Assembly: GCA_965243745.1 (NCBI GenBank)
Contig: CBDEVR010000002.1
Location: forward strand, 327,263-391,262
From: Dehalococcoidia bacterium
GTDB taxonomy: Bacteria; Chloroflexota; Dehalococcoidia; Lucifugimonadales; Australimonadaceae
DNA length: 64,000 bases
Direction of reading: 5' to 3'
Position 1 is the stretch's first letter. Each line of letters opens with the position of its first letter. This document shows positions 181 to 33,300 of the stretch, piece after piece. The notes under the pieces are model-generated. The model was not told the DNA's origin and searched no databases. It saw nothing but the letters and a program-made list of their open reading frames with translations. A program made the position numbers and the translations under genes.

Positions 181-1359
181 CTACCGGGCGAGACCCCACG
201 CGGCCTGCTCGTTGCCCTGCTCCGCGAGACGCGACGCGACAGACGCGATGAGGTTCCCCATCGCCGTCTCCGACCAGAACCAGCGCTGCAACTCGTCGTC
301 GTGCTCGTTCGGACGCTGGGAGAAGCGCGCCTCCATGAAGAACGCCTTGAGATCGTCAGAGGCAAGGCGCAGGAACCGTACCGGTTCGACCCCAGCCGGC
401 ATCCGCTCGTAGGTGGCGTCCTCTCCATCCGCAAAAGCCTGCAGGTAGCGAACGAGGCCCCTGAACTGGCGCTGCGGCACGCCGCTCAGCCCTACCATCG
501 TCCGGCCCTCGTGCTCGTCCACCCATCGCTCGTAGTAGCCGCGGAGCACTGTCACCTCGTCGGCGGGGTCGCTGTCGCGGTTCGCCGCGTCCGCCTGGGC
601 GGCGCTCGCCTGCAGCAGCACGGGCGGGGCGTCCGCATCCTCCGGGAACTCGGCGAAGACGGGCGTGTCGTTCTCCGACAGCAGGCCCAGGGCCGCGGAG
701 AGCACCTTCTGCTGGAAAGGCGGGTCGTCCGGGTTGCCGAGCGCGAACCCGAACGGGAACGGCACCCAGAGCGTCCGTGACGGCTTCACCCGCTGGGCAT
801 GCTCCTTGACGAGCGCGATCGTGACGGTCGGCAGGCCGGCCTCCTCGATGGCGCGCGCGAGCACACTGACCGTGTGCGTGCAGTTCGGTCAGGTCGGCGT
901 CAGGAAGGCCGCGTCGGCGCCCTCATCCAGCAGCAGGCGCCCGACCTCCGGGCCGGTCTCCTCTTCGATGCTGCGCGGGCTGCGCTGCGCCCCCATGAAC
1001 GAGTAGAAGTTCTCCGTCAGCGACCCCACTTCGCCGCGCTCCGCCATCTCCCGCAGCCGGTCGATGGGGAACGTGACGTTCACGTCCCGCATGATGCCCG
1101 TGCGGTCGAACCCGATGCTCATGTGGCTCTGGATGATCCCCGAGGCGGGCGTGGACGACGGGATGACGCGGTACGTCTGGTCCCCGCCGGAGAACGGCGT
1201 GTCGTCGCGCAGGTGCAAGCCCGCCGTCGTCACGAGCGCGATCTTCGCCTCGCTCAGCGGCTTGGACATCACCGCGCGCGGCGAGTCGTCATGGTCGAAG
1301 GCGGGGAAGTTCAGCATCCCCTGCCGCGTCAGGTCGGGCAGGTCCTCGAGTCTCGGCAT
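181..1359 (-). CDS. Glycine/sarcosine/betaine reductase selenoprotein B (GrdB)-like family protein with an in-frame TGA (putative selenocysteine)
   Basis: Track ORFs 889..1359 and 181..864 share one frame and are separated only by TGA (889-891) plus 8 sense codons. The joined product reads ...DAAFLTPT-U-PNCTHTVSVLARAIEEAGLPTVTIALVKEH...TLWVPFPFGFALG. From memory, this is the layout of GrdB-family proteins, which have Sec or Cys in a U/C-x-x-C motif at this point. Confidence 0.65.
861..877 (-). promoter_or_regulatory. Candidate bacterial SECIS hairpin
   Basis: The mRNA reads UGA + 11 nt + GCACAC-GGUCA-GUGUGC: a perfect 6-bp stem with a 5-nt loop containing GGU. Spacing and loop resemble the E. 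coli fdhF SECIS. Confidence 0.5.
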
Positions 1360-1362
1360 GGC

Positions 1363-1794
1363 CTACTCCTCCTCGTCGACGCCGTCCGGGGACGAGCGCG
1401 ACTGCTTGCGGCTGCCGCGCCGCCGCTTCTCTGCCAGCCGTTGCTCCACCGACGCCTGCGACGGACGCGTGGCGTGGCGTGAGCGCGGCGGGGCGGCGGC
1501 ATTGCGCAGGATGCCGACCAACCGCTCAACGGCGTCGTCGCGGTTGCGCTCCTGACTGCGGTAGCGCTGCGCCTTGATGATCAGCACCCCGTTGGCACTG
1601 AGCCTCCGTCCGGCGGCGCTGCGCAGGCGGCGCTTCACTTCCTCGGGCAGCGACGGCGAGGACGCGGCGTCGAAGTGCAGGTGCGCGGCGGTCGCGACGC
1701 GGTTCACGTTCTGCCCGCCCGGCCCTGCGGAGGTGACGTAGTGGAACTCCAGTTCGTGCTCGGCCAGATGGATATCGTCGGTGATGGGGATCAT
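1363..1794 (-). CDS. arfB: Alternative ribosome-rescue factor ArfB (peptidyl-tRNA hydrolase, RF-like GGQ domain)
   Basis: About 140 aa with a GGQ motif (SAGPGGQNVNRV) and a long basic C-terminal tail (RRRGSRKQSR...). Confidence 0.85.
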   Translation of the reverse strand: MIPITDDIHLAEHELEFHYVTSAGPGGQNVNRVATAAHLHFDAASSPSLPEEVKRRLRSAAGRRLSANGVLIIKAQRYRSQERNRDDAVERLVGILRNAAAPPRSRHATRPSQASVEQRLAEKRRRGSRKQSRSSPDGVDEEE

Positions 1795-1884
1795 GCCTTC
1801 ATGGTAACGCCTGCGCCCTTCGCGTTGACAGACCCCCGCCTGCTGCTATGCTCGCTCCACACCCAACCTCTGTGAGGAGTGAGC

Positions 1885-2781
1885 ATGGCGCGCAGCAGCA
1901 ACAGCATCCGGTTCGGACTCAACCCGCGGGGACTCCCCTACGACCGCGTCGTCGCGGTCGCGCAGGCCGCCGAGGCCGCGGGCTTCCAGAACATCTCGTT
2001 CAGCGACAGGCCGCCAGAGAACAACCTGGAAGGGTGGACGCTGGCGACCGCAGTGGCGCTGCAGACTAACCGGCTCCGCGTGACGCACTCCACCCTCAAC
2101 GTCCCGTTCCGCAACCCGGCGATGCTCTCCAAGATGGCCACCGCGCTCGACCACATCACCGGCGGCGACCGGGTCATCCTGACGCTCGGCACCGGTATCC
2201 AGGAGAACCACTTCACCACGTACGGCATCGAGTTCGGCACACCCGGCGAGCGCGTCGACGGCCTGATCGACGCCATCGAGATACTGCGCGGCACGTGGGC
2301 GAACGAGCAGTTCAGCTACTCCGGCAAGCGCTACAGCGTCGAGGACGCCACCGTCACGCCGACGCCCGTGAACGGCACGATCCCCATCTTCCTCGGCGCC
2401 GCCCTGCCGCGCATGCTCCGCCTCACCGGGCGCGTCGCCGACGGCTGGATACGCAACGGCGGCTGGCCGTCCGACCTCGACGCCTACCGCGCGCAGCTCG
2501 CCGCGGTTGTGGAGGCCGCGAGCGCTGCGGGACGCGACCCCGGCTCGCTGCACCGCGTCGTGAACTGCAACGCCTACGTCGGCGACGAGGACCCGACGAC
2601 GAAACTCGCGACGGTGTTCGGCAATCCCGGGGGGCTGATGGGGACGGCGGAGCAGGTGCTGGAGACCGTCGAGCAGTACCGCGAGGCCGGCATCGACACG
2701 TTCCACGTCCAGTTCCAGAACGACATCATCGACGAGCAGATCCCCGCGTTCGGAGAGTTGGTCATCGCGAAAGCAAGGTAG
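1885..2781 (+). CDS. LLM-class (luciferase-like) flavin/F420-dependent oxidoreductase
   Basis: N-terminus IRFGLNP...AQAAEAAGFQNISFSDR and an LTLGTG motif. ATG at 1885 follows a GAGGAG Shine-Dalgarno; the track start at 1879 is a GTG. Confidence 0.8.
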   Translation: MARSSNSIRFGLNPRGLPYDRVVAVAQAAEAAGFQNISFSDRPPENNLEGWTLATAVALQTNRLRVTHSTLNVPFRNPAMLSKMATALDHITGGDRVILTLGTGIQENHFTTYGIEFGTPGERVDGLIDAIEILRGTWANEQFSYSGKRYSVEDATVTPTPVNGTIPIFLGAALPRMLRLTGRVADGWIRNGGWPSDLDAYRAQLAAVVEAASAAGRDPGSLHRVVNCNAYVGDEDPTTKLATVFGNPGGLMGTAEQVLETVEQYREAGIDTFHVQFQNDIIDEQIPAFGELVIAKAR

Positions 2782-2791
2782 GAAGGCGCGT

Positions 2792-4348
2792 CTACGACTT
2801 CCGCAGCGCGCGACCGGGGAACGCGCCGGTGTGCCGCCCCTGCTCCCACACGAGCGTGCCGTTGACGAACACGTACTCGATGCCCGTCGCCAGCTGCTTC
2901 GGCGACTCGAACGTCGCCTGCGCGCGCACGCGCTCCGGGTCGAACACGACCACGTCCGCCTTCGCGCCGTCGCGCAGCACGCCGCGGTCCCGCAGCCCCA
3001 GCCGCCGAGCCGAAGCGCCGGTCATCTTGTGCACCGCGTCCTCCAGGCGCAGCGTGCCCTGCTCGACGGCCTGTCCCAGCAGATAGGGGAACGTGCCGTA
3101 GGTGCGCGGGTTCGGCATCTCGCCCGTCATCAGACCGTCGCTGCCCACCATCTGCGCCGGGTGCGCCATGATGGTGCGCACGTTGTCCGGATTGCCGGTG
3201 CGAGCGACGAATGCCACCTCCAGCCGCTCCTCGATGAGCAGGTCGCAGATCGTGTCCACCATCCGCTTTCCCTGCGCATCCGCCATATCCTGCAGCGAGC
3301 GCCCCTCCCACTCCTTGTTCTTCTCCGAGCCGACGTGGGCGAACATGTAGTCCGCCAGCGAACCTCCCCACTGTGGGTAGACGCCGTCCGCTATCTGGTC
3401 CCGTACGTCCTTGTCCGCGATGCGCTGCAGCAGCATCTCCGGCCCGCCCTCGTGCACCCACGGCGGAATGAGCGACAGCAGGATCGTGCTCGCCGCCGGG
3501 TACGGGTACTGGTCGAACGTCACGTCCACGCCCGACGAACGCGCCTCGTCCACCAATCCAACCATCCGCTCGCCCATGCCGGGGACGGGGTTGTGGTAGT
3601 GCGATATCTGCACCGGCGCGCCCGACTCCCTGCCGACCGCGACCGCCTCGCGGAACGGGTCCAGCAGGCCGTCGCCGAGCGCGTAGCGGCTGTGCGTCAC
3701 GTAGATGCCGCCGTAGGGCGCGACGGCGCTCGCGATCGAGGTCAGCTCGTGGGTATCGCTGTAGATGTTGGGCACGTACGTGAGACCCGTGGAGAAGCCG
3801 AACGCCCCGTCGCGCATCCCCTGCTCAGCCAGCGCCCTCATACGCGCCAGCTCCGCTTCCGTCGGCAGGCGGTTCGCCCATCCCATCGCCTCAATGCGGA
3901 GCGCCGCGTGCGGTACGAAGTACACGACGTTGCACGACGACGTGCCCTCAAACAGGTCGAGGAACGACGCTACCGATGTCCACTCCGTCCCCTCCGGCGG
4001 GCGTCCGTTCACGGCGGCGAGATAGTCCACGAGGTGCTGCCGGTTGACGGGAGAGATGGGAGCGTAGGAGAGGCCGTCCTGCCCCAGAGCCTCGGTCGTC
4101 ACACCCTGGCTCACCTTCGGCTCGTGGCGCGGCGAGGAGAGCAGCGCGAAATCTGAGTGGGAGTGCATGTCGATGAAGCCGGGGCAGACCGCCATGCCGG
4201 ACGCGTCTATCGTGCGCCCCGCCTCGACGTTCGACACGTCGCCTTCGAGCACCGTGACGGTGTCGCCCTCGATGCCGACGGCGGCACGGAACCAGGCGCG
4301 TCCCGCGCCATCGATCACCTTCCCGTTGACGATGAGCGTGTCGAACAT
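2792..4348 (-). CDS. N-acyl-D-amino-acid deacylase (D-aminoacylase) family amidohydrolase
   Basis: MFDTLIVNGKVIDG...GMAVCPGFIDMHSHSD metal-binding motif; 518 aa, typical of the family. Confidence 0.8.
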   Translation of the reverse strand: MFDTLIVNGKVIDGAGRAWFRAAVGIEGDTVTVLEGDVSNVEAGRTIDASGMAVCPGFIDMHSHSDFALLSSPRHEPKVSQGVTTEALGQDGLSYAPISPVNRQHLVDYLAAVNGRPPEGTEWTSVASFLDLFEGTSSCNVVYFVPHAALRIEAMGWANRLPTEAELARMRALAEQGMRDGAFGFSTGLTYVPNIYSDTHELTSIASAVAPYGGIYVTHSRYALGDGLLDPFREAVAVGRESGAPVQISHYHNPVPGMGERMVGLVDEARSSGVDVTFDQYPYPAASTILLSLIPPWVHEGGPEMLLQRIADKDVRDQIADGVYPQWGGSLADYMFAHVGSEKNKEWEGRSLQDMADAQGKRMVDTICDLLIEERLEVAFVARTGNPDNVRTIMAHPAQMVGSDGLMTGEMPNPRTYGTFPYLLGQAVEQGTLRLEDAVHKMTGASARRLGLRDRGVLRDGAKADVVVFDPERVRAQATFESPKQLATGIEYVFVNGTLVWEQGRHTGAFPGRALRKS

Positions 4349-4369: not shown

Positions 4370-4870
4370 CTAGTCCGGGTGGCGAGCGCGGCTCGCGGCC
4401 TGGGAGACCTGCACCGCACGTTGCGCCATCACGGCTTCGGCAAGCGTGTGGAACCTGCCCGACACCACCTTGAGCACCTGGCCGAGCAGTCGATAGCCGA
4501 TATGCGGGTCGCGGACGCACAGGTCCGCGAGTTGGGAACCTTCGAACCGCGCGAGCGTCGCATCGGTCACGCAGACGGCGGTGAGCGAGTACACGAACGG
4601 CTCCACGAGGGCAGACCAGCCGAATATCTGCCCCGCCTTGGCAGTGGAGACCTTCCGGTGCGGCGTATCGATGCCCCACCACTCCGGGACGTTCATGCGG
4701 AGTTCGACCTCGCCGTCGAGCGCGACGTAGAGGTGCTGCGCGTATTCCCCGCTCTTGAATATCTCGCTGTCCGCTTCCGCGGTGACGGTGGTGGCCAGGT
4801 CCTCGAAACGTTCGATCTGGACGGGACTGAATCCCCGGAGCAACTCGCTATGGGCTAACACGCTCTCCAA
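4370..4870 (-). CDS. Stand-alone cyclic-nucleotide-binding (cNMP) domain protein
   Basis: 166 aa. The pattern LLRGFSPVQIERFEDL...IFKSGEYAQHLYVALDGEVEL...GQIFGWSAL matches the Crp-type beta-roll. There is no HTH domain. Confidence 0.65.
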   Translation of the reverse strand: MESVLAHSELLRGFSPVQIERFEDLATTVTAEADSEIFKSGEYAQHLYVALDGEVELRMNVPEWWGIDTPHRKVSTAKAGQIFGWSALVEPFVYSLTAVCVTDATLARFEGSQLADLCVRDPHIGYRLLGQVLKVVSGRFHTLAEAVMAQRAVQVSQAASRARHPD

Positions 4871-4979: not shown

Positions 4980-5969
4980 TCACGACGAGAGATCGACGAC
5001 GATATTCCCTATCGCGGCGTTGCTCTCCTGCAGTTCATGCGCCGCCGCGATGTCATCCAGCGGCATGGCGGCTGCGATGGGGTGCGTGAGCGCGCCGGCC
5101 GTGATGGCCCTCGCGATGTCCTCCACCGCCTGCCGCTTGGCCGCCTCCGGCTCCGAGTAGACGAGTACGAAGTGGACGGTCGCGTTCTTCCGGGAGAGCG
5201 CCTGGTACTCCACAGCGGGCTCGCGGTCGCCGGTGGACGCATAGCAGCCGATGGCGCCGTTCAGTCGCAGGGCGCGCTTGCTGGCCGCAAGGTTCCCGCC
5301 GAAGTCGACCTCGACGATGCGTTCGGCGCCCTCGCCGCCGGTGAGCTCCAGCACGCGCTCGCCCACGTCCTCGGTGCGGTAGTTGATCGTATGGTCGGCG
5401 CCGGCCCGCAGGGCGTGCCCCGCCTTCTCGTCCGAACTCACCGTGGCGATGACGGTCGCCCCGCCCCATTTGGCCAACTGGATGGCGCAGTGCCCCACGG
5501 CGCCTGCACCGCCAGTCACCAGGACGGTCATGCCGCCGACGGGCCCACTCGCGAAGAGGCAGCGGTGCGCCGTCATGGCGGGTATGCCGATGCACGCGCC
5601 CTCCTGGAACGTGACGCTCTCCGGGAGCGCCGGAGCGTGAGCAGACGGCAGCGCGATGTACTCGGCCGCGGTGCCGAACGGACGCTGCCATTGTCCCTCG
5701 AAGAGCCAGACGCGCTCACCGACTCGTGACGCATCCACCCCAGCGCCGACCGCCTCGATAACGCCCGCGCCGTCGCTGTGCGGGATGATGCGGGGGAACG
5801 GCATCTGCGGTCCGCGCGAGCCGGTGCGCGATTTCCAGTCCGACGGGTTCACGCCGGAGGCATGCACACGCACCAGCACCTCGCCGGGCCCTGGCTCCGG
5901 GTCTGGCATCTCGCCGACGTGGAAGACGTCCCGCGCCGGGCCGTACCGCTCATACCATGCCGCTCTCAT
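4980..5969 (-). CDS. NADPH:quinone reductase / zinc-type alcohol dehydrogenase superfamily (MDR) oxidoreductase
   Basis: MRAAWYERYGPARDVFHVGEMPDPEPGPGEVLVRVHASGVNPSDW... plus a GGAGAVG Rossmann motif. Start ATG 5967-5969 is preceded by GGAGGAG; the track ORF extends further upstream. Confidence 0.8.
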   Translation of the reverse strand: MRAAWYERYGPARDVFHVGEMPDPEPGPGEVLVRVHASGVNPSDWKSRTGSRGPQMPFPRIIPHSDGAGVIEAVGAGVDASRVGERVWLFEGQWQRPFGTAAEYIALPSAHAPALPESVTFQEGACIGIPAMTAHRCLFASGPVGGMTVLVTGGAGAVGHCAIQLAKWGGATVIATVSSDEKAGHALRAGADHTINYRTEDVGERVLELTGGEGAERIVEVDFGGNLAASKRALRLNGAIGCYASTGDREPAVEYQALSRKNATVHFVLVYSEPEAAKRQAVEDIARAITAGALTHPIAAAMPLDDIAAAHELQESNAAIGNIVVDLSS

Positions 5970-5976
5970 GCTCCTC

Positions 5977-7053
5977 CTAGATATCGCACTCGACGTCGAA
6001 CTCCGCGCAGACGCCGCGGAACCACTCGACCACCTCGCGATGCAGCGGGATGCCCTGCACAGAGCGCTCCTCCAGTGCGTCCCACTCCGGATCGCCTGCA
6101 ACCATCACGCGATCGTGGCCCGCCGCGGGAGGCGTCGCCTTCAACTCGCGGATGAAGTCGTCCATCCGTCCCTTGAACTCGCCAACGTCGCTGAAGGCGT
6201 CGATGTTGTACGCAGCGACGTAGTGGCGGTAGTTCTGGCGTCCGGCCTGCATCCCGTAGTCCGTCCCGGAAAGCACGGAGCAGAGGATGTCGACCGCCAC
6301 CGCGAGGCCGTAGCCCTTGTGCGAACCGGCGTCGCGGTTCGTGCCGAGCGGCAGCAGGATGTAGTCGTCCGGCACGGGCGCGGGCTCCATCACCGGCGTG
6401 CCGTCCTCCGCCGCGATGGTCCCCGGCGGGAGCAGCGTCCCCATCCGGCGGGCGTTCCGCACCTTGTTGACCGGCACCACGCTGGTCGCCATGTCGAATA
6501 CCCACGGACGCTCCTCCAGCGTGGGTGCGGCGATGGCGATGGGGTTGGTCCCGAGACGCGGCGCCCGTCCGAACGTCGGCGCGACGTCCGGCCCGGTGGC
6601 CGTCATGCAAACACCGATCATGTCGTGCGGGAGCGCCAGCATCGCGTGGTAGGCCGCCATGCCGACGTGCCCGCCATTGAACATCGTGACGACGCCGATG
6701 CCGGTATGTCTCGCCTTCTCGATGGCGATCTCCATCGCCTTCGGAGCGATGATGACGCCAAGCCCGCGGTCGCAGTCGATGTTCGCGGAGGCCGCGCGCT
6801 CCCGCACGACACGCCACTGCGGCGCGATCTTCTGCACGCCGTTCTGGTAGCGGTCCAGGTAGACCTTCAGCATGTTGGAGACGCCGTGGCTGTCCACCCC
6901 ACGCAGATCGGCGGTGACGAGCACGTCCGCCGCGAGCGCAGCATCCCCGGGCGCGAGGCCTACCTTCTCGAACAGCGCTTCCGTCGCTTCCCGCAGCGGC
7001 CCGGCCTGTACGCGAACGGCGTCCTCCTCCCGGATGTGGAAGCTCTGCGTCAC
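5977..7053 (-). CDS. Ldh family 2 oxidoreductase (malate/L-lactate/sulfolactate dehydrogenase type)
   Basis: ADVLVTADLRGVDSHGVSNMLKVYL and ...NPIAIAAP... motifs; 358 aa. Confidence 0.75.
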   Translation of the reverse strand: MTQSFHIREEDAVRVQAGPLREATEALFEKVGLAPGDAALAADVLVTADLRGVDSHGVSNMLKVYLDRYQNGVQKIAPQWRVVRERAASANIDCDRGLGVIIAPKAMEIAIEKARHTGIGVVTMFNGGHVGMAAYHAMLALPHDMIGVCMTATGPDVAPTFGRAPRLGTNPIAIAAPTLEERPWVFDMATSVVPVNKVRNARRMGTLLPPGTIAAEDGTPVMEPAPVPDDYILLPLGTNRDAGSHKGYGLAVAVDILCSVLSGTDYGMQAGRQNYRHYVAAYNIDAFSDVGEFKGRMDDFIRELKATPPAAGHDRVMVAGDPEWDALEERSVQGIPLHREVVEWFRGVCAEFDVECDI

Positions 7054-8817: not shown

Positions 8818-9666
8818 GTGTGCTACGCTCACGCCATGCAGCTGCGGAACGTGGACCGAGGCCTGACCTACGCCGATCTCACCTTCATCCACGAGGCGCT
8901 CGGGAGGGACGCGCCCGCCGAGGACGAGATGCCGCGACTGCTCGCGAATGAAGAACGCCGGGCGGAGCTGCTCGGCAGCCAACGCCTATTCGACGCCCTG
9001 CTGCCCCACGACGGCTCGCTCGCGCCGGTCTCGCCGCGGCTCTTCTTCGAGACGCTGCTGCGCCGCGCAGTCGAAGAGCTGCAAGGCACGCGGCACACGT
9101 TCGAGCGCACCGGCTCGGTCTCCGGCGAGCGCGTGCCGGTGTTCGACGCGGCGGAGGTGGCGGCGTTCGCGGCGCAGCCGCGCATCCTGCACTACCTCGC
9201 GTCGATGCTGTCGTCGTTCACGAAGGTGCACAGCCACACGGAGCGCGTCTGGGTACGGCGCGGCGTCGTACGCAAGGTGCGCTACAGCGACCTGGACGTG
9301 CACTCGATGCTGCGGCTGATCCAGCAGACCGAGGAGCACGAGCGCCTGCCGCTCTACCGGCGGACAGGCGACCTCTGCCTGCTCATCCTCGGCATCTTCC
9401 CGGATTTCGCCGCGACCGCCCAGCGTTACCCGGGCTCGGGCGCACTGCGGGCGCAGTCATCGTACCGGCGCAGGCTGAGCACGGAGGAGTACGAGACGGT
9501 CGCGGCGGAGATGTACGGTCACGCGGCGCGGTACGACACGGGGGAAGCGTCGGCGGTCCACCGCACGCTCGCCGCCCGCATCCCGGACGCCAGGAAGCCG
9601 CTCAACTTCATGGCCGAGCACTACCTCGGTTTCCGCCGCGACCGGCTGTTCGGAACGGGGGAGTGA
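8818..9666 (+). CDS. Hypothetical protein
   Basis: Long ORF in an otherwise empty interval. No family recognised. The start is uncertain (an alternative ATG lies 6 codons in). Confidence 0.45.
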   Translation: MCYAHAMQLRNVDRGLTYADLTFIHEALGRDAPAEDEMPRLLANEERRAELLGSQRLFDALLPHDGSLAPVSPRLFFETLLRRAVEELQGTRHTFERTGSVSGERVPVFDAAEVAAFAAQPRILHYLASMLSSFTKVHSHTERVWVRRGVVRKVRYSDLDVHSMLRLIQQTEEHERLPLYRRTGDLCLLILGIFPDFAATAQRYPGSGALRAQSSYRRRLSTEEYETVAAEMYGHAARYDTGEASAVHRTLAARIPDARKPLNFMAEHYLGFRRDRLFGTGE

Positions 9667-9729: not shown

Positions 9730-9786
9730 TGAGATGGTCCAGCGCATTGCGCGCGGACAACAGGGAGAGAGAGAAGCGACCCAGCA

Positions 9787-10047
9787 ATGAGCACCGAGAG
9801 CGTTCCTGCCTACTTCGCCGACTTCAAGGAAGAGAACGCCAGACAGCACGGCGAACTGAGCGCCAAGATCGAGCAGACCAAGGGCGATCTGGGTGTTCGG
9901 CTAGAGCAGTCCGAAGGCAGGTTGAGTCTGCAGATAGAGCGTACGCAGGCAACGCTCATCAAATGGGTAGTAGCGACCATGCTCGGCGGCATCACCGCCG
10001 TCAGCGGCCTGATGTTCACGCTCGCCTACCTGATACAGTCTGCGTAG
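9787..10047 (+). CDS. Small coiled-coil protein with C-terminal TM helix (DUF1640-like)
   Basis: 86 aa. A heptad-like N-terminal half is followed by a hydrophobic C-terminus, IKWVVATMLGGITAVSGLMFTLAYLI. Confidence 0.5.
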   Translation: MSTESVPAYFADFKEENARQHGELSAKIEQTKGDLGVRLEQSEGRLSLQIERTQATLIKWVVATMLGGITAVSGLMFTLAYLIQSA

Positions 10048-10183
10048 AGCAAGGCCAGAGCTCTCGCCCTCCCCCTCCCCCGGATCACACTCCTTAGCAC
10101 CCACAACCCTCACTATTGCCCTCGCCTGCGTGCGGGCGTACAGTTCGCCGCAAGTGAACGGATGGCGCAGCCGGAGGTGTGCG

Positions 10184-11215
10184 ATGGCCGTGATCGACTC
10201 AGATGCCCACGTCGTGGAGTCGGAGCGGACGTGGGACTTCATCCCGGATGAGCTGCAGCACCTCCGCCCCATCGTCCTGCTGCCCAAGGAGGGCTACAAG
10301 TCGCCCTCTCCGGAGTTCTGGTATGTCGACGGGCGGGCCTTCAGCAAGGGCGTCAACGTCGGCCTCGACACCGACGAGGCCACCCGCGAGGCGAGCGACA
10401 TCGCCAGGCGGCTCGCCCACATGGATGAGCTCGGCGTCGACACGCACGTCCTCTACCCCAGCATCTTCCTCCGCCCGCTTGCCACGCACCCTGAGGTGGA
10501 CCTGGCGCTCGCACAGGGCTACAACCGCTGGCTCGCCGACATCCACCGGCAGGGCGGCGGACGCCTCCGTTGGGCCGTCGTGCTCCCCACGATGTCGCTC
10601 GGCGAGTCGATCGAAGAGATGCAGTTCGGGAAGGACAACGGGGCGTGCGCGGTGTTCATGCGCGGCATCGAGGGCCCGCACCGGCTGAGCGACCCGTACA
10701 TGACCCCGCTCTGGGAGGAGGCGCAGCGGCTGGACCTCCCGGTATGTATCCATGCCGCGACCGGCAACTTCGCTTTCTTCGACTACTTCGGGCGCGATGC
10801 GGGCTTCTCCACGTTCAAGCTCTCCGGCGTCGGCGCGTTCCACGACATCGTTATGAAGGACATGCACCTGCGCTTCCCCGACCTGCGCTGGGGGTTCGTG
10901 GAGCTGAGCGCGTCGTGGGTCCCGTACGCGATGAACGACCTGGCGCTGCGGTTCGAGAAGCGGGGCAAGGCGTGGCCGGGACGCGAACTGCTGGCGGAGC
11001 GCAACATCTGGGTCGCCGTGCAGACCGCCGACGACATCGATTACATCATCGACTGCGCGGGCGAGGACAACCTCGTGCTCGGCACGGACTACGGCCACAA
11101 CGACACCTCGACCGAGCTGCACGCGCTCCGCAACCTGCGCGAGAACGGCGGACTCGGCGACGAGGTGGCGGACAAGATACTCGACCACAACCCCACGAAA
11201 CTCTACGCGCTCTAG
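10184..11215 (+). CDS. Amidohydrolase-2 (ACMSD-like, PF04909-type) family protein
   Basis: MAVIDSDAHVVE..., HVLYPS..., VCIHA..., LGTDYGHND motifs. The ATG at 10184 follows GGAGG. Confidence 0.8.
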   Translation: MAVIDSDAHVVESERTWDFIPDELQHLRPIVLLPKEGYKSPSPEFWYVDGRAFSKGVNVGLDTDEATREASDIARRLAHMDELGVDTHVLYPSIFLRPLATHPEVDLALAQGYNRWLADIHRQGGGRLRWAVVLPTMSLGESIEEMQFGKDNGACAVFMRGIEGPHRLSDPYMTPLWEEAQRLDLPVCIHAATGNFAFFDYFGRDAGFSTFKLSGVGAFHDIVMKDMHLRFPDLRWGFVELSASWVPYAMNDLALRFEKRGKAWPGRELLAERNIWVAVQTADDIDYIIDCAGEDNLVLGTDYGHNDTSTELHALRNLRENGGLGDEVADKILDHNPTKLYAL

Positions 11216-11245
11216 CGACATCCAGGACGAAAGGGAGGACCTGCC

Positions 11246-12247
11246 ATGTCACGCATCGGAAGGATCGGACGTCTGGGACGGCTCATGCTGCTCGCGGGAG
11301 CGCTCGCGGCCATCGCCGCATTCGGCGCAGCCTGCGGCGACGACGAGCCGGAGTTCCCGACCCGCGACATCGAATGGTTCGTGGGGTTCGGAGCGGGCGG
11401 CGGGTTCGACACCGCCAGCCGCATCATCGCGGAGAAGATGGGCGAGGACCTCGGCGTGAACGTCGTGGTGCGGAACATCGAGGGCGGCGGCGGACGGCGC
11501 GCCGTGCAGGAGATCGCACGATCCGACCCGGACGGCCATGCCATCTCCATCATGAACATGCCGAACCAGATAACGGCGGAACGGCTCGACCCCGAGGACG
11601 TGGACTTCAACGAACTCTCCTGGGTGGGGCGCGCGGTCATCCAGACCTACGGCCTGTACACCGCGTCCGCGAACGACTTCAACACACCGCAGGACCTGCA
11701 GGGCATGCCGGACGTCCGCTTCTGCCTGAGCGGCCTCGCCGGGCACTCCTTCCTCGTCGCGTCCGTCACCACAGAGGTGATGGGCATCGCGTGGAACCCG
11801 GTAACGGGCTACCGCGGCCAGGAGACGCAGGCCGGACTGCTGCGCGGCGACTGTGAACTGGCGCTCGGTCCGATCGCCGGCTCGACGCTGACCGCGGTGC
11901 AGGGGCCGGACTTCAAGGTGCTGTGGATGTACTCCAGCGAGCGCTTCGGCCCAGTGCCCGACGCGCCGACCGTGGACGAGCTTGGCTTCCCCGAACTGGG
12001 CGGCTCCAAGTTCGCGAATAACGGACTCGTCGCGGCGGCCCCCGGCACACCGGACGATATCCTGCAGATACTGGCGGACGCGTTCGACAGCGCGCTGCAG
12101 GACGCGGACGTTATCGCCGGCATCAACAACGCGGGTATGGGCGTCGAGCGGCTCACCCCTGACGAGACGGCCGACGTCGTCTCGGGGATGGACGGCATCG
12201 TCTCGGAGTACATCGACACGGTACGGCAGAAGTCGCAGGCACAATAG
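11246..12247 (+). CDS. tctC: Tripartite tricarboxylate transporter substrate-binding protein (TctC/Bug family)
   Basis: Lipoprotein-like leader (..AAFGAACGDD) and the Bug-family core VGFGAGGGFDTASRIIAEKM...VVVRNIEGGGG. Confidence 0.85.
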   Translation: MSRIGRIGRLGRLMLLAGALAAIAAFGAACGDDEPEFPTRDIEWFVGFGAGGGFDTASRIIAEKMGEDLGVNVVVRNIEGGGGRRAVQEIARSDPDGHAISIMNMPNQITAERLDPEDVDFNELSWVGRAVIQTYGLYTASANDFNTPQDLQGMPDVRFCLSGLAGHSFLVASVTTEVMGIAWNPVTGYRGQETQAGLLRGDCELALGPIAGSTLTAVQGPDFKVLWMYSSERFGPVPDAPTVDELGFPELGGSKFANNGLVAAAPGTPDDILQILADAFDSALQDADVIAGINNAGMGVERLTPDETADVVSGMDGIVSEYIDTVRQKSQAQ

Positions 12248-12268
12248 CGGGGGAGGCTCGGCACTCTC

Positions 12269-13777
12269 ATGTTCGAGGCATTCCTCGACGGCCTCGCAGG
12301 GATGGGCAGCCCCGCCGTGATCGGGGCGATCATCCTGGGCACGACGCTCGGCGTCCTGTTCGGGGTGATTCCCGGTCTCGGCAGCGTCATCGCGATGACG
12401 CTGATCCTGCCGTTCACGTTCGGCTGGGACCCCATCATCGCGATGTACGTGTTCGCGGGCATCATCGGCACCGCAAGCACAGGCGGCGGGGTGCCGGCCA
12501 TCCTCCTCAATACGCCTGGGACGATCGCAAACGTCTGTACGACGTTCGACGGCTTCCCCATGACGCGGCGGGGCGAGGGCGGACGCGCCATAGGGCTGGC
12601 TGCCACTGCGTCGGCGCTCGGCACGCTGTTCAGCATCGTCGTGCTCGCGGCGCTGCTGCCGCTGGCGGAGGTCATGCTGCGGGCATTCACGCCGCCGGAC
12701 TTCTTCTGGCTCATCATCCTGGGCCTCATCGCCGTGACGTTCGCGTCGCGGCAGAACATGGTGAAGGGGCTCGCTGCAGGCGGCGTCGGCATCCTCATCG
12801 CGCTCATCGGGTTCAGCCCCGTGTTCGGCGTGCGGCGCTACACGCTCGGGAGCGAGTACCTGTGGGACGGCATCGAGATCGTCCCGCTCGTCATCGGTTT
12901 CTTCGCACTGAGCGAGCTCATCGTCTACACGTCGCGCGGCGGCTCCATCGCGCGGGATGCCAGCGTCCACCTCGGCGGCTTCCGGCAGATCATGCGCGGG
13001 GCGGTGGAGGTGTTCCAGTACAAGGCGATCCTGCTGCGCGGCTCGGTCATCGGAACGGTGATCGGGGCCATCCCCGGCGCGGGCGGCGCGGTGGCCAACT
13101 TCCTCTCCTACTCGACCGCCAAGCAGGCGTCCAAGACACCGGAGCTGTTCGGCACGGGCTATCCGGGCGGGGTCGTCGCGTCAGAGTCGTCCAACGACGC
13201 GAAGGACGGCGGCATCCTGCTGCCGACGCTGACGTTCGGCATCCCCGGCAACGGAGAAATGGTCATCCTGATGGGCGCATTCGTGCTGCACGGCATACAG
13301 CCGGGGCGGGACCTGCTCGTGAACCGGCTGGACATCGTGTGGGCCATCATCCTGGGCGTCATCGCGGCGCAGGTGCTCACCACCATCATCATCCTGGGCG
13401 GCGGGGCGTGGCTCGCGCGCATCAGCCTCGTGCCGGTGAAGTACATCGCGCCGTTCGTGGCCATCCTCTCGTTCATCGGCGTCTACGCCGTGCGAAGCAA
13501 CATCTGGGACGTGGCGCTCGCGGTGTTCGCGGCCCTCGTGGGCTTCTCGATGCGGCGCGCCGGGTTCCCGCTCATCACGCTGGTGATCGGGTTTGTGCTC
13601 GGTCAGCTGGCGGAGGAGAAGTTCACGCAGTCGCTCCAGATATCGGGCGGGGGCTACTCGATATTCTTCACACGTCCGGTCTCCATCGTCCTGCTGCTCG
13701 GCATCGTGTTCATGCTCGGCTGGTCGATGTACAAGGCGGCGAAGAAGGCCCCTGCGCCGCAGACGGCAGAGTCATGA
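12269..13777 (+). CDS. tctA: Tripartite tricarboxylate transporter permease TctA
   Basis: 502-aa polytopic protein with IPGLGSVIAMTLILP and GAIPGAGGAVANFLSY motifs. Confidence 0.85.
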   Translation: MFEAFLDGLAGMGSPAVIGAIILGTTLGVLFGVIPGLGSVIAMTLILPFTFGWDPIIAMYVFAGIIGTASTGGGVPAILLNTPGTIANVCTTFDGFPMTRRGEGGRAIGLAATASALGTLFSIVVLAALLPLAEVMLRAFTPPDFFWLIILGLIAVTFASRQNMVKGLAAGGVGILIALIGFSPVFGVRRYTLGSEYLWDGIEIVPLVIGFFALSELIVYTSRGGSIARDASVHLGGFRQIMRGAVEVFQYKAILLRGSVIGTVIGAIPGAGGAVANFLSYSTAKQASKTPELFGTGYPGGVVASESSNDAKDGGILLPTLTFGIPGNGEMVILMGAFVLHGIQPGRDLLVNRLDIVWAIILGVIAAQVLTTIIILGGGAWLARISLVPVKYIAPFVAILSFIGVYAVRSNIWDVALAVFAALVGFSMRRAGFPLITLVIGFVLGQLAEEKFTQSLQISGGGYSIFFTRPVSIVLLLGIVFMLGWSMYKAAKKAPAPQTAES

Positions 13778-14380: not shown

Positions 14381-14540
14381 CTACGGTACGGGCGCGTCGG
14401 CTCCGACCGCTCCTCTGAAGTTGACCTTGACCCTGAGAGGCGTAACATGAAGCCGGTTCGCCTATCGGTTTTTTGCGGTAGTTGGATGTGCATCCCTGCT
14501 CCGGCACATCCGATGCAGTGCTCCATGGAGGGTAACGGAT

Positions 14541-15911
14541 ATGCAACAGGCGAATGGGACACAGCGACGGAATGGACGCAGCAGGAACGGACCAACGCCA
14601 TACGAGGCCGCCGTCCTCGGCTTCCGCAACTACTGGTACCCCGTCTTTACCTCAGGCGAAGTGGATGAGAAGGCACGGGCCATGACGCTGCTCGGCGACG
14701 ACCTCTTCTTCGTCAGGCGGCAGGGAAAGGTCTACGCGCTGATCAACGAATGCGCCCACCGCGGCACGCGCTTCACTCACCCCCTCGGCATCTACTACTT
14801 CAAGGGCACACCTACCATCACCTGCGGCTACCACGGCTGGACCTACGACGTGACCAATGGCATGTGCGTCGCGGTCCCCACGGAAGGACCGACGAGCCAG
14901 GTGCCGGGCAAGGTGCGCCTGCGCACCTACCCCGTGGAGGAGCGCGCAGGCATCATCTGGGTCTGGATCGGTGAGCAGACTCCTGTGCCCGTGGAGGAGG
15001 ACATCCCCAAGGCACTCCTCCTCGACAACGCCGTGGTCAAGGTCCGCAACGTCATCTTCAACGGGAACTGGCGGTGGCACGCCGAAAACGTCAACGGCGG
15101 ACACGACTTCATCGTCCACAACCTGGCCGCGCGGAACTGGTTCAAGCCACTGAAGGTGTTCCCGGACCCGGAGACCAACTTCCCCCATGAAGTCGAGGAC
15201 TGGGACGGTAAGGGCGTCGCTTCGACCCAGGGACGAGGCAACAAAACCCCGTCCTACGATGTGTGGGACATACCGGGCCTGGGGAGATGGCCCCAGCGGC
15301 CCCTGTGGCACCGGCTGCTTCTGAACTGGTGGATCCGGCGGGCCCCGCGGTACGGCGGCGCCGGGGTAAAGGGCGGTATGTTGTCATTGCCGGGCTACTT
15401 CCGCGTGCCCGGACACCCGAACAACGGCAACCTCTACTACGAGTGGTACGTCCCCGTTGATGAGGACCACTACATCTACTTCCAGGTCACGAGCTGGTTC
15501 CCCACGAACATATTCGGGCGGCTGGGTCACTGGCTGAAGTACTACCTCCACGGAAAACCGATAGGCGTTGTCCGGTTCAACAACCAGGACGCCGCCATGG
15601 TCGCGGAGACCACGGCCTACGTGAACCGGCACGGCCCCGGCGCCGAACGGTACTTCTCCAAGCTCACCCAGAACGACCGGTTCCACGAATTCTGGCGGGA
15701 GTACTGCAACAAGCATGCCCGCGGCGTCGGTCACGCGTACACACGGACCGGGGACTCCGAGGCGTTACCGGCAGCGCGCAACGGACATGCAGAGCAGGTA
15801 TCGGCACGCCAGAAACCAGGTCCACCTATCGGCCCACCGCCTCACGATACTGCGCCTAGCGTGCCGACACCTGCATCGGCACGTTCCGGGGAACAGCCCC
15901 GTGGAGGGTAA
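14541..15911 (+). CDS. Rieske [2Fe-2S] non-heme iron oxygenase, tandem copy 1 (with a read-through C-terminal extension)
   Basis: Rieske motif CAHRG...CGYHGW and catalytic-domain motif NWRWHAENVNGGHDFIVH. The C-terminal 44 aa are read from the inter-copy spacer. Confidence 0.8.
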   Translation: MQQANGTQRRNGRSRNGPTPYEAAVLGFRNYWYPVFTSGEVDEKARAMTLLGDDLFFVRRQGKVYALINECAHRGTRFTHPLGIYYFKGTPTITCGYHGWTYDVTNGMCVAVPTEGPTSQVPGKVRLRTYPVEERAGIIWVWIGEQTPVPVEEDIPKALLLDNAVVKVRNVIFNGNWRWHAENVNGGHDFIVHNLAARNWFKPLKVFPDPETNFPHEVEDWDGKGVASTQGRGNKTPSYDVWDIPGLGRWPQRPLWHRLLLNWWIRRAPRYGGAGVKGGMLSLPGYFRVPGHPNNGNLYYEWYVPVDEDHYIYFQVTSWFPTNIFGRLGHWLKYYLHGKPIGVVRFNNQDAAMVAETTAYVNRHGPGAERYFSKLTQNDRFHEFWREYCNKHARGVGHAYTRTGDSEALPAARNGHAEQVSARQKPGPPIGPPPHDTAPSVPTPASARSGEQPRGG

Positions 15912-15916
15912 CGGAT

Positions 15917-22609: not shown

Positions 22610-23227
22610 GTTCTTCTTCCCCTTTCAGCTTGACCGACCGATCCCAACCATTCAGGCACTCGCTCTCAGTGAGCCAGAAGCGTGGTGTGCATCTCCGTGT
22701 GCTTCAGGCACCTTCAAAGCACCCAACCGATACTGGCGGGTGAGTACTTGGACATGCTGGGGGCTCAGGACTTCCAGCAGTTGGTTCATGGCAACGCGAG
22801 GAAGCCGCACCATCGGTGTCGGCTTGGACGAGGACCGCTCGGCTATCGCTCCGGCCGCCAGATCGTTCACTGGGAACTCCCACTTCACCCCAGACTCTCG
22901 ACGTTTGCGGAACTAGGAGGGAACCGATCGTTGGCTCGGTTAAGCCCCAACTGCCAGCCGTTGCGCTTCATACTACAAGTGCAACCCGAAATGTCAACAG
23001 GCAGCATGCCTGAACGGACATGGCGTCGATTCCATCCACAACCTCCTTTTTGGGTAACGCAATTCGTCGTCGACAGAGGCGCCGGCATGGCAGCCTCGAG
23101 CAAGGTCGGGTATGATGGCCCTGCCGTCTCCTGATGGCCTTCAGCAGTCAGCAATGAGCTTGGGGTCGCTGCCGTGAGGGCCGGAACCTTGTGGTTCCGA
23201 TCAAGGTATTGCGTGAGGAGGACCTGG

Positions 23228-28212: not shown

Positions 28213-28300
28213 GTGCGCTCCTGTCAGCTATCTCCTGCGTGAAGCGACAGGTTAGCCTGCTCCGCCCGCGCGTACAATCGTCGTCCGCAAGGACCCAGCG

Positions 28301-33230: not shown

Positions 33231-33300
33231 GGCGTGAACGGCATCGCGGGCGGAACGGCTCCATCTGAAGCGATGTCAAGGTGCGACGAGGGAACCCCAC

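What the first reader, a model, noticed from the sequence alone, without database searches (positions are those of the whole stretch)
181..1359. Probable selenoprotein: GrdB-like gene joined by an in-frame UGA with a SECIS-like hairpin
The ORF track shows two minus-strand ORFs (889..1359 and 181..864). They share one reading frame and are separated only by TGA at 889-891 plus 8 sense codons. Read through, the junction is ..FLTPT-U-PNC-THTVSVLARAIEEAGLPTV.., a U-x-x-C redox motif. From memory, that is where glycine/sarcosine/betaine reductase B-type (PF07355) proteins carry Sec or Cys. Eleven nt after the UGA the mRNA forms GCACAC-GGUCA-GUGUGC (861-877). Its spacing and GGU-containing loop resemble the fdhF bacterial SECIS. 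No sel genes or tRNA-Sec occur in this window. This is a GrdB-like selenoprotein outside the clostridial Stickland context, next to arfB and redox paralogs, and gene callers would miss it.
Basis: partly seen in the sequence, partly recalled or inferred. Interest (0 to 1): 0.7.

Follow-up and report, generated by a model that had tools for sequence, protein, structure and literature searches.

The report
PrdB-like selenoprotein gene split by UGA
Two neighbouring "genes" are really one 392-codon gene whose internal UGA almost certainly encodes selenocysteine; it is real, but it belongs to a marine "PrdB-like" selenoprotein family catalogued since 2005, so it is a routine annotation fix rather than a discovery.

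Summary
Minus-strand ORFs 889..1359 and 181..864 are one reading frame interrupted only by TGA at 889-891, followed 11 nt later by the hairpin GCACAC-GGUCA-GUGUGC (861-877).

The selenoprotein reading is strongly supported:
- The joined 392-aa product matches PrdB/GrdB models.
- All 16 full-length homologs have Cys at the TGA column (TPT-C-PxC-THT).
- 79 of 80 related genomic loci from at least six phyla keep TGA there; L068 was not resolved.
- The hairpin is conserved, with compensatory changes in 3 of its 6 pairs and frozen synonymous sites. It is lost in three Cys-form genes.
- TGA is an ordinary stop elsewhere in the window.

No sel genes or tRNA-Sec lie in the window. A close relative (SAR202 bin16, 92% identical ortholog) is reported to carry SelA, SelB and SelD.

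The source is a SAR202/Dehalococcoidia bacterium, probably sponge-associated. There is no PrdA, PrdC or GrdA partner, and the score is below the PrdB equivalog cutoff. It is therefore an orphan PrdB-like protein with an extra helical C-terminal domain, not D-proline reductase.

The same architecture appears as "Proline reductase PrdB" in the 2005 Sargasso Sea selenoproteome. Verdict: new member of a known kind. Substrate unknown. Interest about 0.3.

The parts
181..1359 (-). Complete selenoprotein gene: 392 codons (ATG 1359-1357, Sec codon 157, stop TAG 183-181)
   Evidence: Full-length alignment to Cys-form homologs of 365-399 aa covers 92-100% of the query. GC3 is 0.90-0.97 across both halves.
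889..891 (-). In-frame TGA, predicted selenocysteine codon (residue 157, first residue of U-P-N-C)
   Evidence: Aligns with Cys in 16 of 16 full-length homologs. TGA sits at this column in 79 of 80 related loci; L068 was not resolved. It also aligns with 'u' of Sargasso PrdB AACY01087932.
880..882 (-). TGC, Cys160, predicted resolving cysteine of the UxxC motif
   Evidence: Invariant in alignment A1 and in 74 of 74 Sec-form DNA sequences.
861..877 (-). SECIS-like hairpin: 6-bp stem (877-872 with 866-861) and 5-nt loop GGUCA (871-867), starting 11 nt after the UGA
   Evidence: 96.8% of cells paired across 74 distinct sequences. Three of 6 pairs carry compensatory changes, and 0 of 500 shuffles reach the observed values. 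Synonymous sites are frozen: GTG 73/74 and CAC 73/74. The pairing is not kept in Cys-form genes, with 2-4 of 6 pairs.
673..1269 (-). PrdB-like catalytic domain (residues 31-229)
   Evidence: TIGR04483 E 4.6e-44 over residues 31-229. PF07355 scores 43 bits against a cutoff of 22.
184..672 (-). Family-specific, mostly helical C-terminal domain (residues 230-392), with no Pfam or NCBIfam model
   Evidence: Searches give no hit. It is conserved in all homologs. AF2 of homolog P0041 predicts helices at 266-395 with high confidence. The domain is shared with the Sargasso 'PrdB' sequences.
1366..1374 (-). Shine-Dalgarno-like GAGGAGGAG, 6 nt upstream of the ATG and inside the end of arfB
   Evidence: Read directly from the sequence. 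No comparable signal precedes the GTG at 864.
1363..1794 (-). arfB (alternative ribosome-rescue peptidyl-tRNA hydrolase), immediately upstream. Its stop TAG lies 3 nt before the selenoprotein ATG, so the two are probably co-transcribed
   Evidence: NF006718 ArfB equivalog scores 167 bits against a cutoff of 100. The same arrangement is found in 25 related loci of the nearer clade, all from L001-L033.

Best explanation
Window 181-1359 (minus strand) is a single gene for a 392-residue selenoprotein of the GrdB/PrdB superfamily, in a SAR202/Dehalococcoidia bacterium.

Decoding. UGA codon 157 is decoded as selenocysteine by SelB and Sec-tRNA(Sec). The recruiting signal is a small hairpin in the coding sequence that starts 11 nt downstream and has a G-U-containing loop.

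Protein. Sec157 and Cys160 form a U-x-x-C redox pair. In the predicted structure of a Cys-form homolog, the equivalent residue 157 sits at the N-terminal cap of a helix that follows a beta-strand, a glutaredoxin-like geometry.

Inferred mechanism, by analogy with PrdB. The selenolate attacks a substrate carbon and reductively cleaves a C-N or C-X bond next to a carbonyl. Cys160 then resolves the adduct to a selenylsulfide, and a dithiol donor (thioredoxin, or a lipoyl carrier such as the GcvH-like protein encoded next to some Cys forms) reduces that bond again.

What it is not. The protein is not D-proline reductase. It has no PrdA/PrdC partner, it scores below the PrdB cutoff, and it carries a family-specific helical C-terminal domain.

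Shown versus inferred. Shown: one gene, the Sec/Cys column, TGA conservation, and RNA-level selection on the hairpin. Inferred: SelB recruitment, the chemistry and the reductant. The substrate is unknown.
For: One frame, with a coding signature on both sides of the TGA.

Family models: PrdB E 4.6e-44, PF07355 above its gathering score.

Cys sits at the TGA column in 16 of 16 full-length homologs.

TGA is conserved in 79 of 80 loci spanning Chloroflexota, Tectimicrobiota/Entotheonella, Methylomirabilota/Rokubacteria, Binatia, Acidobacteriota, and single Gammaproteobacteria and Micromonosporaceae MAGs, down to 50% amino-acid identity.

Hairpin pair counts:
- pair 25:33: AU 58, GC 15, GU 1
- pair 22:36: CG 73, AU 1
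- pair 21:37: GC 53, UA 5, CG 1, GU 1
- 0 of 500 shuffles reach the observed values, and slid controls collapse.

Codon-level freezing in the stem: GTG 73/74, while the adjacent Val codon is GTC 48, GTG 9, GTA 8.

The hairpin is absent in Cys-form DNA.

TGA ends 11 of 35 window genes, so it is not reassigned.

Sec machinery in a close relative: SAR202 bin16 (MPMJ) carries the 92%-identical ortholog (L010) and has SelA, SelB and SelD in Table S4 of PMC5649159. Dehalococcoidia MAGs are among the richest selenoproteomes in BSepDB.

Structure: AF2 model with strand 150-154 followed by helix 158-173, and a weak glutaredoxin active-site match.

The same family is listed as a selenoprotein in PMC1088965 and PMC2398784.
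Against: No selA, selB, selD or tRNA-Sec is in the 64-kb window, and the rest of this genome could not be searched.

The hairpin is thermodynamically unremarkable in its G+C-rich context (z = +1.03).

The hairpin overlaps conserved codons, so part of its conservation is due to protein constraint.

Three of the six pairs never vary, and the outermost pair fails in 14 of 74 sequences.

There is no Rfam match.

No experimental evidence (75Se labelling, peptides) exists for any member.

The chemistry and the reductant rest on analogy with clostridial PrdB, whose pyruvoyl partner PrdA is missing here.
Confidence: 0.92

Rival explanations
1. Pseudogene or sequencing error: a nonsense mutation has inactivated a formerly Cys-containing PrdB-like gene.
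For: Gene callers and public records treat it as two ORFs. No Sec machinery is in the window.
Against: The same TGA is present in 79 of 80 independent assemblies across several phyla, with intact ORFs and strong purifying selection on both sides. GC3 is 0.93-0.95 on both sides.
Confidence: 0.01
2. Two genuine separate genes: a 156-aa N-terminal protein that ends at TGA, and a 227-aa protein initiated at GTG 864.
For: Both pieces are called as genes in ENA, NCBI and JGI records, and many 227-255-aa representatives exist.
Against: The break falls inside one alpha/beta domain, between a strand and its helix. It lands exactly on the active-site Cys of the contiguous homologs. The GTG 'start' is a conserved Val codon inside the hairpin and has no ribosome-binding site. 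The frame is always maintained across the TGA.
Confidence: 0.02
3. UGA is read through or recoded as a standard amino acid (Trp, Gly or Cys) rather than Sec. Possible routes are near-cognate suppression, or Cys-tRNA(Sec) under selenium limitation.
For: Sec insertion has not been shown experimentally. Cys is functional at this position in homologs.
Against: TGA terminates 11 of 35 genes in the window. A position-specific covarying hairpin at the canonical SelB distance is not needed for simple read-through. A close relative has SelA, SelB and SelD. The family is dominated by TGA forms (PMC2398784 reports 235 Sec against 110 Cys).
Confidence: 0.04
4. It is a true D-proline reductase PrdB (or a glycine/betaine reductase B subunit) working in a Stickland-type complex whose partners are encoded elsewhere in the genome.
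For: The best family match is PrdB (E 4.6e-44). The literature labels the family 'Proline reductase PrdB'.
Against: The score of 150.6 is far below the equivalog cutoff of 300. No PrdA, PrdC, GrdA or GrdE was found in any of about 80 neighbourhoods, and the neighbours differ between clades. There is an extra 160-aa C-terminal domain that PrdB lacks. The hosts are largely aerobic heterotroph lineages, and the window context is mono- and dioxygenases.
Confidence: 0.05

Closest known systems
Marine 'Proline reductase PrdB' selenoprotein family of the Sargasso Sea and GOS selenoproteomes (Zhang, Fomenko & Gladyshev 2005, PMC1088965; Zhang & Gladyshev 2008, PMC2398784)
   Same: Same domain order: a PrdB-like domain carrying U-P-x-C, then the helical C-terminal domain. 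The shared motifs are RTxVGLS, DLKAFYxEA and WFWxET. BLASTP against AACY01087932 gives 36% identity over 233 aa, E 2e-40, with the Sec column aligned. Sec forms outnumber Cys forms.
   Different: The window gene is a SAR202/Dehalococcoidia ortholog, TPT-U-PNC-THT rather than CPV-U-PAC-TST, from a probably sponge-associated genome. The papers gave only fragments and no functional analysis.
D-proline reductase subunit PrdB of Clostridium sticklandii / C. difficile (TIGR04483; EC 1.21.4.1)
   Same: Homologous catalytic domain (E 4.6e-44 over nearly the whole 238-position model) and a UxxC motif at the equivalent place. Dithiol-dependent chemistry is plausible.
   Different: Below the equivalog cutoff (150.6 against 300). 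No PrdA pyruvoyl subunit or PrdC nearby. An extra C-terminal domain of about 160 aa. Non-Stickland hosts.
Glycine/sarcosine/betaine reductase selenoprotein B (GrdB/GrdF/GrdH; PF07355, TIGR01918)
   Same: Member of Pfam GRDB. It aligns to the C-terminal half (positions about 205-408 of 431) that carries the Sec.
   Different: Lacks the N-terminal half of GrdB. TIGR01918 scores 63.0, just under its 65.45 cutoff. The motif is UxxC, not UxxCxxC. No GrdA, GrdC, GrdD or GrdE context.
E. coli fdhF-type bacterial SECIS (established knowledge; not tested here with bSECISearch)
   Same: A hairpin inside the coding sequence whose stem begins 11 nt after the UGA, with G then U in the apical loop. Loop position 2 is G in 74 of 74 sequences and position 3 is mostly U.
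   Different: Much shorter: 5-6 bp with a 5-nt loop. No bulged U, and no supported lower stem. SelB binding is untested.

Membership tests
Bacterial selenoprotein gene (Sec-UGA recoding) | In-frame TGA with intact coding sequence on both sides | tested here: met
Bacterial selenoprotein gene (Sec-UGA recoding) | Homologs with Cys aligned to the TGA | tested here: met
   16 of 16 full-length homologs have Cys. TGC confirmed in L082-L084.
Bacterial selenoprotein gene (Sec-UGA recoding) | TGA conserved in orthologs from other genomes | tested here: met
   79 of 80 loci, several phyla; L068 not resolved.
Bacterial selenoprotein gene (Sec-UGA recoding) | SECIS stem-loop immediately downstream of the UGA, under RNA-level selection | tested here: met
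   Covariation in 3 of 6 pairs, with 0 of 500 shuffles reaching it. Synonymous sites frozen. Hairpin lost in Cys forms. Thermodynamic z-score not significant. bSECISearch was not available.
Bacterial selenoprotein gene (Sec-UGA recoding) | selA, selB, selC (tRNA-Sec) and selD in the same genome | not testable with these tools
   None in the 64-kb window, and the rest of the genome is not available. A close relative, bin16, has SelA, SelB and SelD according to PMC5649159 Table S4.
Bacterial selenoprotein gene (Sec-UGA recoding) | Selenium demonstrated in the protein (75Se labelling or mass spectrometry) | not testable with these tools
   Experimental.
D-proline reductase PrdB (TIGR04483 equivalog) | Score at or above the curated equivalog cutoff (300 bits) | tested here: not met
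   150.6 bits.
D-proline reductase PrdB (TIGR04483 equivalog) | Adjacent prdA (pyruvoyl proprotein) and prd operon partners (PrdC, PrdD, PrdE, PrdF) | tested here: not met
   Absent from the window flank, from L001, and from the conserved neighbour clusters of about 80 loci.
D-proline reductase PrdB (TIGR04483 equivalog) | UxxC active-site motif | tested here: met
   U157-P-N-C160.
D-proline reductase PrdB (TIGR04483 equivalog) | Single-domain protein of about 240 aa | tested here: not met
   392 aa, with an added C-terminal domain.
Pfam GRDB superfamily (PF07355) | Score above the Pfam gathering threshold | tested here: met
   43 bits against 22.
GrdB-type selenoprotein B subfamily (TIGR01918) | Score at or above 65.45 bits, with a full-length architecture of about 430 aa | tested here: not met
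   63.0 bits, and only model positions 205-408 are matched.
Marine 'PrdB' selenoprotein family of Zhang et al. 2005/2008 | PF07355 domain with UxxC plus the shared C-terminal domain; significant similarity to the published sequences | tested here: met
   BLASTP E 2e-40 over 233 aa against AACY01087932, with the Sec column aligned.

The most novel reading that the evidence does not exclude
The orphan PrdB-like family, a catalytic domain plus a private helical C-terminal domain with no solved structural relative, could be a stand-alone selenoenzyme that needs no pyruvoyl partner. It would perform a so-far undescribed reductive C-N, C-S or C-halogen cleavage on recalcitrant or sponge-derived compounds in aerobic heterotrophs such as SAR202. 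The reductant would be a lipoyl carrier (GcvH-like) or thioredoxin. In the window's clade, the tightly coupled upstream arfB might additionally rescue ribosomes that stall at the Sec-UGA when selenium is scarce.
Probability: 0.12. Interest if true: 0.6.

Novelty: new member of a known kind. Interest (0 to 1): 0.3.

Why it matters
In practice this is an annotation repair. In this window, and in essentially every public relative (ENA, NCBI and JGI records), the gene is stored as a 156-aa 'GRDB' fragment plus a 227-233-aa 'hypothetical protein'. Metabolic reconstructions of SAR202, Entotheonella, Rokubacteria and others therefore miss a conserved selenoenzyme and undercount selenium dependence.

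In biological terms, the family has been among the most abundant marine selenoproteins for 20 years without a known substrate or partner. Three observations here give concrete starting points for biochemistry:
- There is no PrdA.
- Neighbours vary between clades.
- Some Cys forms sit next to a GcvH-like gene inside aromatic-catabolism clusters.

None of this makes the finding itself new.

Tried and rejected
- tblastn of E. coli SelA, SelB and SelD against the window and all 84 loci gave no hits.
- ARAGORN and Rfam on the window, and ARAGORN on 60 loci, found no tRNA-Sec.
- An Rfam E-value scan of 780-960 returned only noise.
- A search for other in-frame TGA candidates in the window found none. 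The only other hit is the antisense shadow of this gene.
- A paralog search in the window found none. Weak hits at 9754-10191 were inspected and dismissed.
- An extended lower SECIS stem (alignment columns 16-18 with 40-42) has no covariation, and one pair fails in 29 of 74 sequences.
- Thermodynamic significance of the hairpin was not found.
- Conserved gene-neighbour analysis looked for a partner (PrdA, PrdC, GrdA, thioredoxin reductase). Nothing is conserved beyond clade-level synteny.
- A PDB sequence search and a Foldseek search with a confident AF2 model found no solved relative.
- Exact-sequence look-ups of the window's own protein and of P0001 were not on record.
Full report
**1. The observation**

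ATG is at 1359. There are 156 sense codons, then TGA at 891-889, then 235 further sense codons in the same frame, and TAG at 183-181. The junction reads ...DEGADAAFLTPT-*-PNC-THTVSVLARAIEEAGLPTV....

The 227-aa 'ORF' 181..864 merely starts at the first GTG after the TGA. A GAGGAGGAG Shine-Dalgarno-like run (1374-1366) precedes the ATG at 1359. Nothing comparable precedes GTG 864.

The hairpin is GCACAC (877-872) / GGUCA (871-867) / GUGUGC (866-861), and it begins 11 nt after the UGA.

Among all in-frame TGAs of the 64-kb window, this is the only one with a coding signature on both sides (GC3 0.95 and 0.93, against a window G+C of 0.66). The single other hit is the antisense shadow of the same gene.

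**2. What the protein is**

The joined product, with C substituted for U, gave these family matches:

| Model | Result | Cutoff | Region matched |
|---|---|---|---|
| NCBIfam TIGR04483 (PrdB) | E 4.6e-44, 150.6 bits | 300 | residues 31-229, model positions 23-220 of 238 |
| Pfam GRDB PF07355 | 43 bits | 22 | residues 18-156 |
| TIGR01918 | 63.0 bits | 65.45 | residues 17-220, model positions 205-408 of 431 |

It is therefore a member of the GrdB/PrdB superfamily, closest to PrdB, but it does not qualify as a PrdB or GrdB equivalog. Residues 230-392 match no model.

**3. The Sec/Cys test**

A search of 5.8 billion proteins returned two classes of hit. Relatives at 58-96% identity were all called as 217-252-aa C-terminal fragments, that is, with the same split. 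Relatives at 42-46% identity were contiguous proteins of 365-399 aa covering 92-100% of the query. One of these is an Umezawaea protein that NCBI names 'glycine/sarcosine/betaine reductase selenoprotein B family protein'.

In the alignment of 16 contiguous homologs, every one has Cys at the TGA column, in the motif TPT-C-PxC-T[HR]T.

**4. Conservation of the TGA**

One scan of 185,579 species-representative genomes returned 80 loci. Most are Dehalococcoidia, SAR202 or Chloroflexota MAGs. Others come from Candidatus Entotheonella/Tectimicrobiota, Rokubacteria/Methylomirabilota, Binatia and Acidobacteriota, plus one gammaproteobacterial and one Micromonosporaceae MAG. Amino-acid identity ranges from 94% down to 50%.

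In 79 of 80 loci the codon at this column is TGA and the frame is kept on both sides. L068 could not be resolved.

A syntenic locus from a 2.9-Mb Dehalococcoidia chromosome shows the public gene calls as a 156-aa 'GRDB' piece plus a 227-aa piece with no Pfam hit.

A nonsense mutation, a sequencing error, or two independent genes cannot explain this pattern.

**5. The hairpin**

I aligned 74 distinct 66-nt segments around the TGA. The alignment has no indels. RNAalifold recovers the hairpin. For the 6-bp stem, 96.8% of cells pair. Three pairs carry compensatory changes:

| Pair (alignment columns) | Pair types observed |
|---|---|
| 25:33 | AU 58, GC 15, GU 1 |
| 22:36 | CG 73, AU 1 |
| 21:37 | GC 53, UA 5, CG 1, GU 1, unpaired 14 |

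No shuffle out of 500 reaches the observed covariation, and sliding the partner columns abolishes it.

At the codon level, the Val codon in the 3' arm is GTG in 73 of 74 sequences; the one GTT is compensated by CAC to AAC. The very next Val codon, in the loop, is GTC 48, GTG 9, GTA 8. The Thr-to-Ala replacement (ACG to GCG) in the 5' arm is matched by a synonymous AGT-to-AGC change in the 3' arm. This is selection on RNA, not only on protein.

In three Cys-form genes the homologous positions pair at only 4, 2 and 3 of 6. In 15 of 16 Cys-form proteins the conserved Val is Ala or Thr.

Caveats:
- Three pairs never vary.
- The fold is not thermodynamically exceptional in this G+C-rich context (z = +1.03).
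- A putative lower stem has no support.
- Rfam has no matching family.
- The second loop base is G in all 74 sequences and the third is mostly U. Together with the 11-nt spacing this matches what is known of the E. coli fdhF minimal SECIS. That comparison rests on established knowledge and was not tested here.

**6. Genetic code and Sec machinery**

TGA terminates 11 of 35 confidently coding ORFs in the window (TAG 22, TAA 2), so it is not reassigned.

The window holds only tRNA-Glu. It gave no tblastn hit to SelA, SelB or SelD (the queries were recalled from memory, so this negative is weak). The rest of this genome could not be searched.

Evidence at the level of the lineage:
- Locus L010 is MPMJ01000025.1 of 'SAR202 cluster bacterium bin16'. 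It carries a 92%-identical ortholog with the TGA.
- MPMJ00000000 is bin16 of Slaby et al. 2017, at 65.63% G+C against 65.9% for the window.
- Their Table S4 gives bin16 one copy each of SelA (COG1921), SelB (COG3276) and SelD (COG0709).
- The paper notes that SelA and SelB co-occur in most sponge-symbiont bins.
- BSepDB lists Dehalococcoidia MAGs with 49 and 46 selenoproteins among the richest bacterial selenoproteomes.

**7. Context and likely mechanism**

Neighbours in the window are as follows:

| Coordinates (strand) | Product |
|---|---|
| 1363-1794 (-) | arfB; equivalog, 167 bits against cutoff 100; stop codon 3 nt before the selenoprotein ATG |
| 1879-2781 (+) | luciferase-like (LLM/F420-type) oxidoreductase |
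| 2792-4348 (-) | amidohydrolase |
| 4370-4870 (-) | cNMP-binding protein |
| 4980-5972 (-) | quinone oxidoreductase |
| 5977-7053 (-) | Ldh_2 dehydrogenase |
| 11216-13777 (+) | TctC / TctA transporter |
| 14451-17167 (+) | two Rieske ring hydroxylases |

There are no paralogs of the gene in the window.

Across the roughly 80 loci, no neighbour is conserved beyond clade level:
- arfB lies upstream in 25 loci of the nearer clade, all from L001-L033.
- A glyoxalase/VOC protein lies downstream in another SAR202 group.
- An SRPBCC-like protein plus a fused electron-transfer flavoprotein (ETF) follow in Entotheonella.
- A branched-chain amino-acid ABC transporter follows in Rokubacteria, Binatia and Methylomirabilota.

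No PrdA, PrdC, GrdA or GrdE was seen anywhere.

Cys forms are followed by a GcvH-like lipoyl-carrier gene in two of three loci. Two of the three (L082, L084) sit in clusters with hydroxyquinol-type dioxygenase and maleylacetate-reductase-like genes.

An AlphaFold2 model of the Cys homolog P0041 is confident (pLDDT 88.3, pTM 0.89). It places residue 157 at the N-cap of helix 158-173, directly after strand 150-154. This is the geometry of a glutaredoxin or thioredoxin CxxC site, and a weak profile match to glutaredoxin active sites is consistent with that. The model also predicts an all-helical C-terminal domain (266-395). Foldseek finds no PDB neighbour at E <= 0.001.

The best-supported mechanism is therefore a U157/C160 selenol-thiol redox couple. 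It would perform PrdB-type nucleophilic, reductive bond cleavage and be recycled by a dithiol. This part is inference by homology. The substrate is unknown. Substrate diversity in the superfamily is illustrated by the proposed GrdB-like fluoroacetate reductase of Synergistota.

**8. Comparison with what is known**

'Proline reductase PrdB' (pfam07355, UxxC) was the third most abundant selenoprotein family in the Sargasso Sea, with 42 genes. In GOS it had 235 Sec sequences against 110 Cys homologs.

The Sargasso supplement contains sequences such as AACY01087932 and AACY01078217. They show ...CPV-u-PAC-T... followed by the same C-terminal domain motifs: RTTVGLS, DLKAFYIEA and WFWNETVAG. BLASTP of AACY01087932 against the window protein gives 36% identity over 233 residues, E 2e-40, with 'u' aligned to codon 157.

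A profile made from the post-Sec part of the protein found 1,888 cluster representatives at 50% identity (E <= 1e-3), of which 177 had E <= 1e-30. Most of the best 150 are proteins of 227-255 aa that start at profile position 2-4. These are post-TGA fragments, so TGA forms dominate the family.

The family and its selenoprotein status are thus already in the literature. What is not there is a function, a partner, or correct annotation in genome records.

**9. Verdict**

It is an orphan PrdB-like selenoprotein, not D-proline reductase. It is a new member of a known kind. Interest is about 0.3: the gene is real, it is mis-annotated everywhere, and it belongs to a long-unexplained abundant family, but a selenoproteome specialist would not be surprised by it.

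Noticed in passing
window 1363-1794 (-), and loci L001-L033: arfB (ribosome-rescue peptidyl-tRNA hydrolase) ends 3 nt before the selenoprotein start codon, and the ribosome-binding site lies inside arfB. The arrangement is kept in 25 related loci of one clade and in no other clade. Coupling of a ribosome-rescue factor to a UGA-recoded gene may be coincidental synteny or functional.
   Followed up: partly
window 33238-41532 (+): A giant ORF of 2,764 codons with at least six cadherin domains plus Ig-like repeats (Pfam Cadherin E 6e-95). This is a eukaryote-like adhesin typical of sponge symbionts.
   Followed up: partly
whole window (35 ORFs): Stop-codon usage is TAG 22, TGA 11, TAA 2. TAG dominance is unusual for a genome of 66% G+C, where TGA usually prevails. 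This could relate to heavy Sec-UGA use in the lineage.
   Followed up: no
L083 9199-9600 and L084 9246-9623: Cys-form homologs are immediately followed by a GcvH-like (lipoyl-carrier) gene. L084 (and likewise L082, which is followed by a YCII gene rather than GcvH) lies in a cluster with hydroxyquinol-type dioxygenase and maleylacetate-reductase-like genes; L084 also has dienelactone hydrolase and muconate cycloisomerase genes. This gives a candidate dithiol donor and a hint of the pathway.
   Followed up: partly
L044 10865-12205 (+): 4.4 kb downstream of the ortholog, a second, GrdB-length family member ends at ...GVDAVVLTSA-TGA and continues in frame as GTSTRSGAAIATELEKAGIPV.... This is a further candidate selenoprotein, with U-x-x-S instead of U-x-x-C.
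   Followed up: partly
model of P0041 (homolog of window 181-1359): A confident AlphaFold2 model (pLDDT 88, pTM 0.89) has no Foldseek neighbour in the PDB at E <= 0.001, and a sequence profile finds no solved relative. The GrdB/PrdB fold appears to be structurally uncharacterised.
   Followed up: yes
window 14451-17167 (+), 1879-2781 (+), 27346-28227 (-): There are two tandem Rieske/Aromatic_hydrox ring-hydroxylating oxygenases and two luciferase-like monooxygenases. This is the oxygenase-rich repertoire described for SAR202.
   Followed up: no
window 8818-9666 (+), 10130-11215 (+), 21410-22624 (-): These ORFs have a strong coding signature but no Pfam or NCBIfam hit at the thresholds used.
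   Followed up: no
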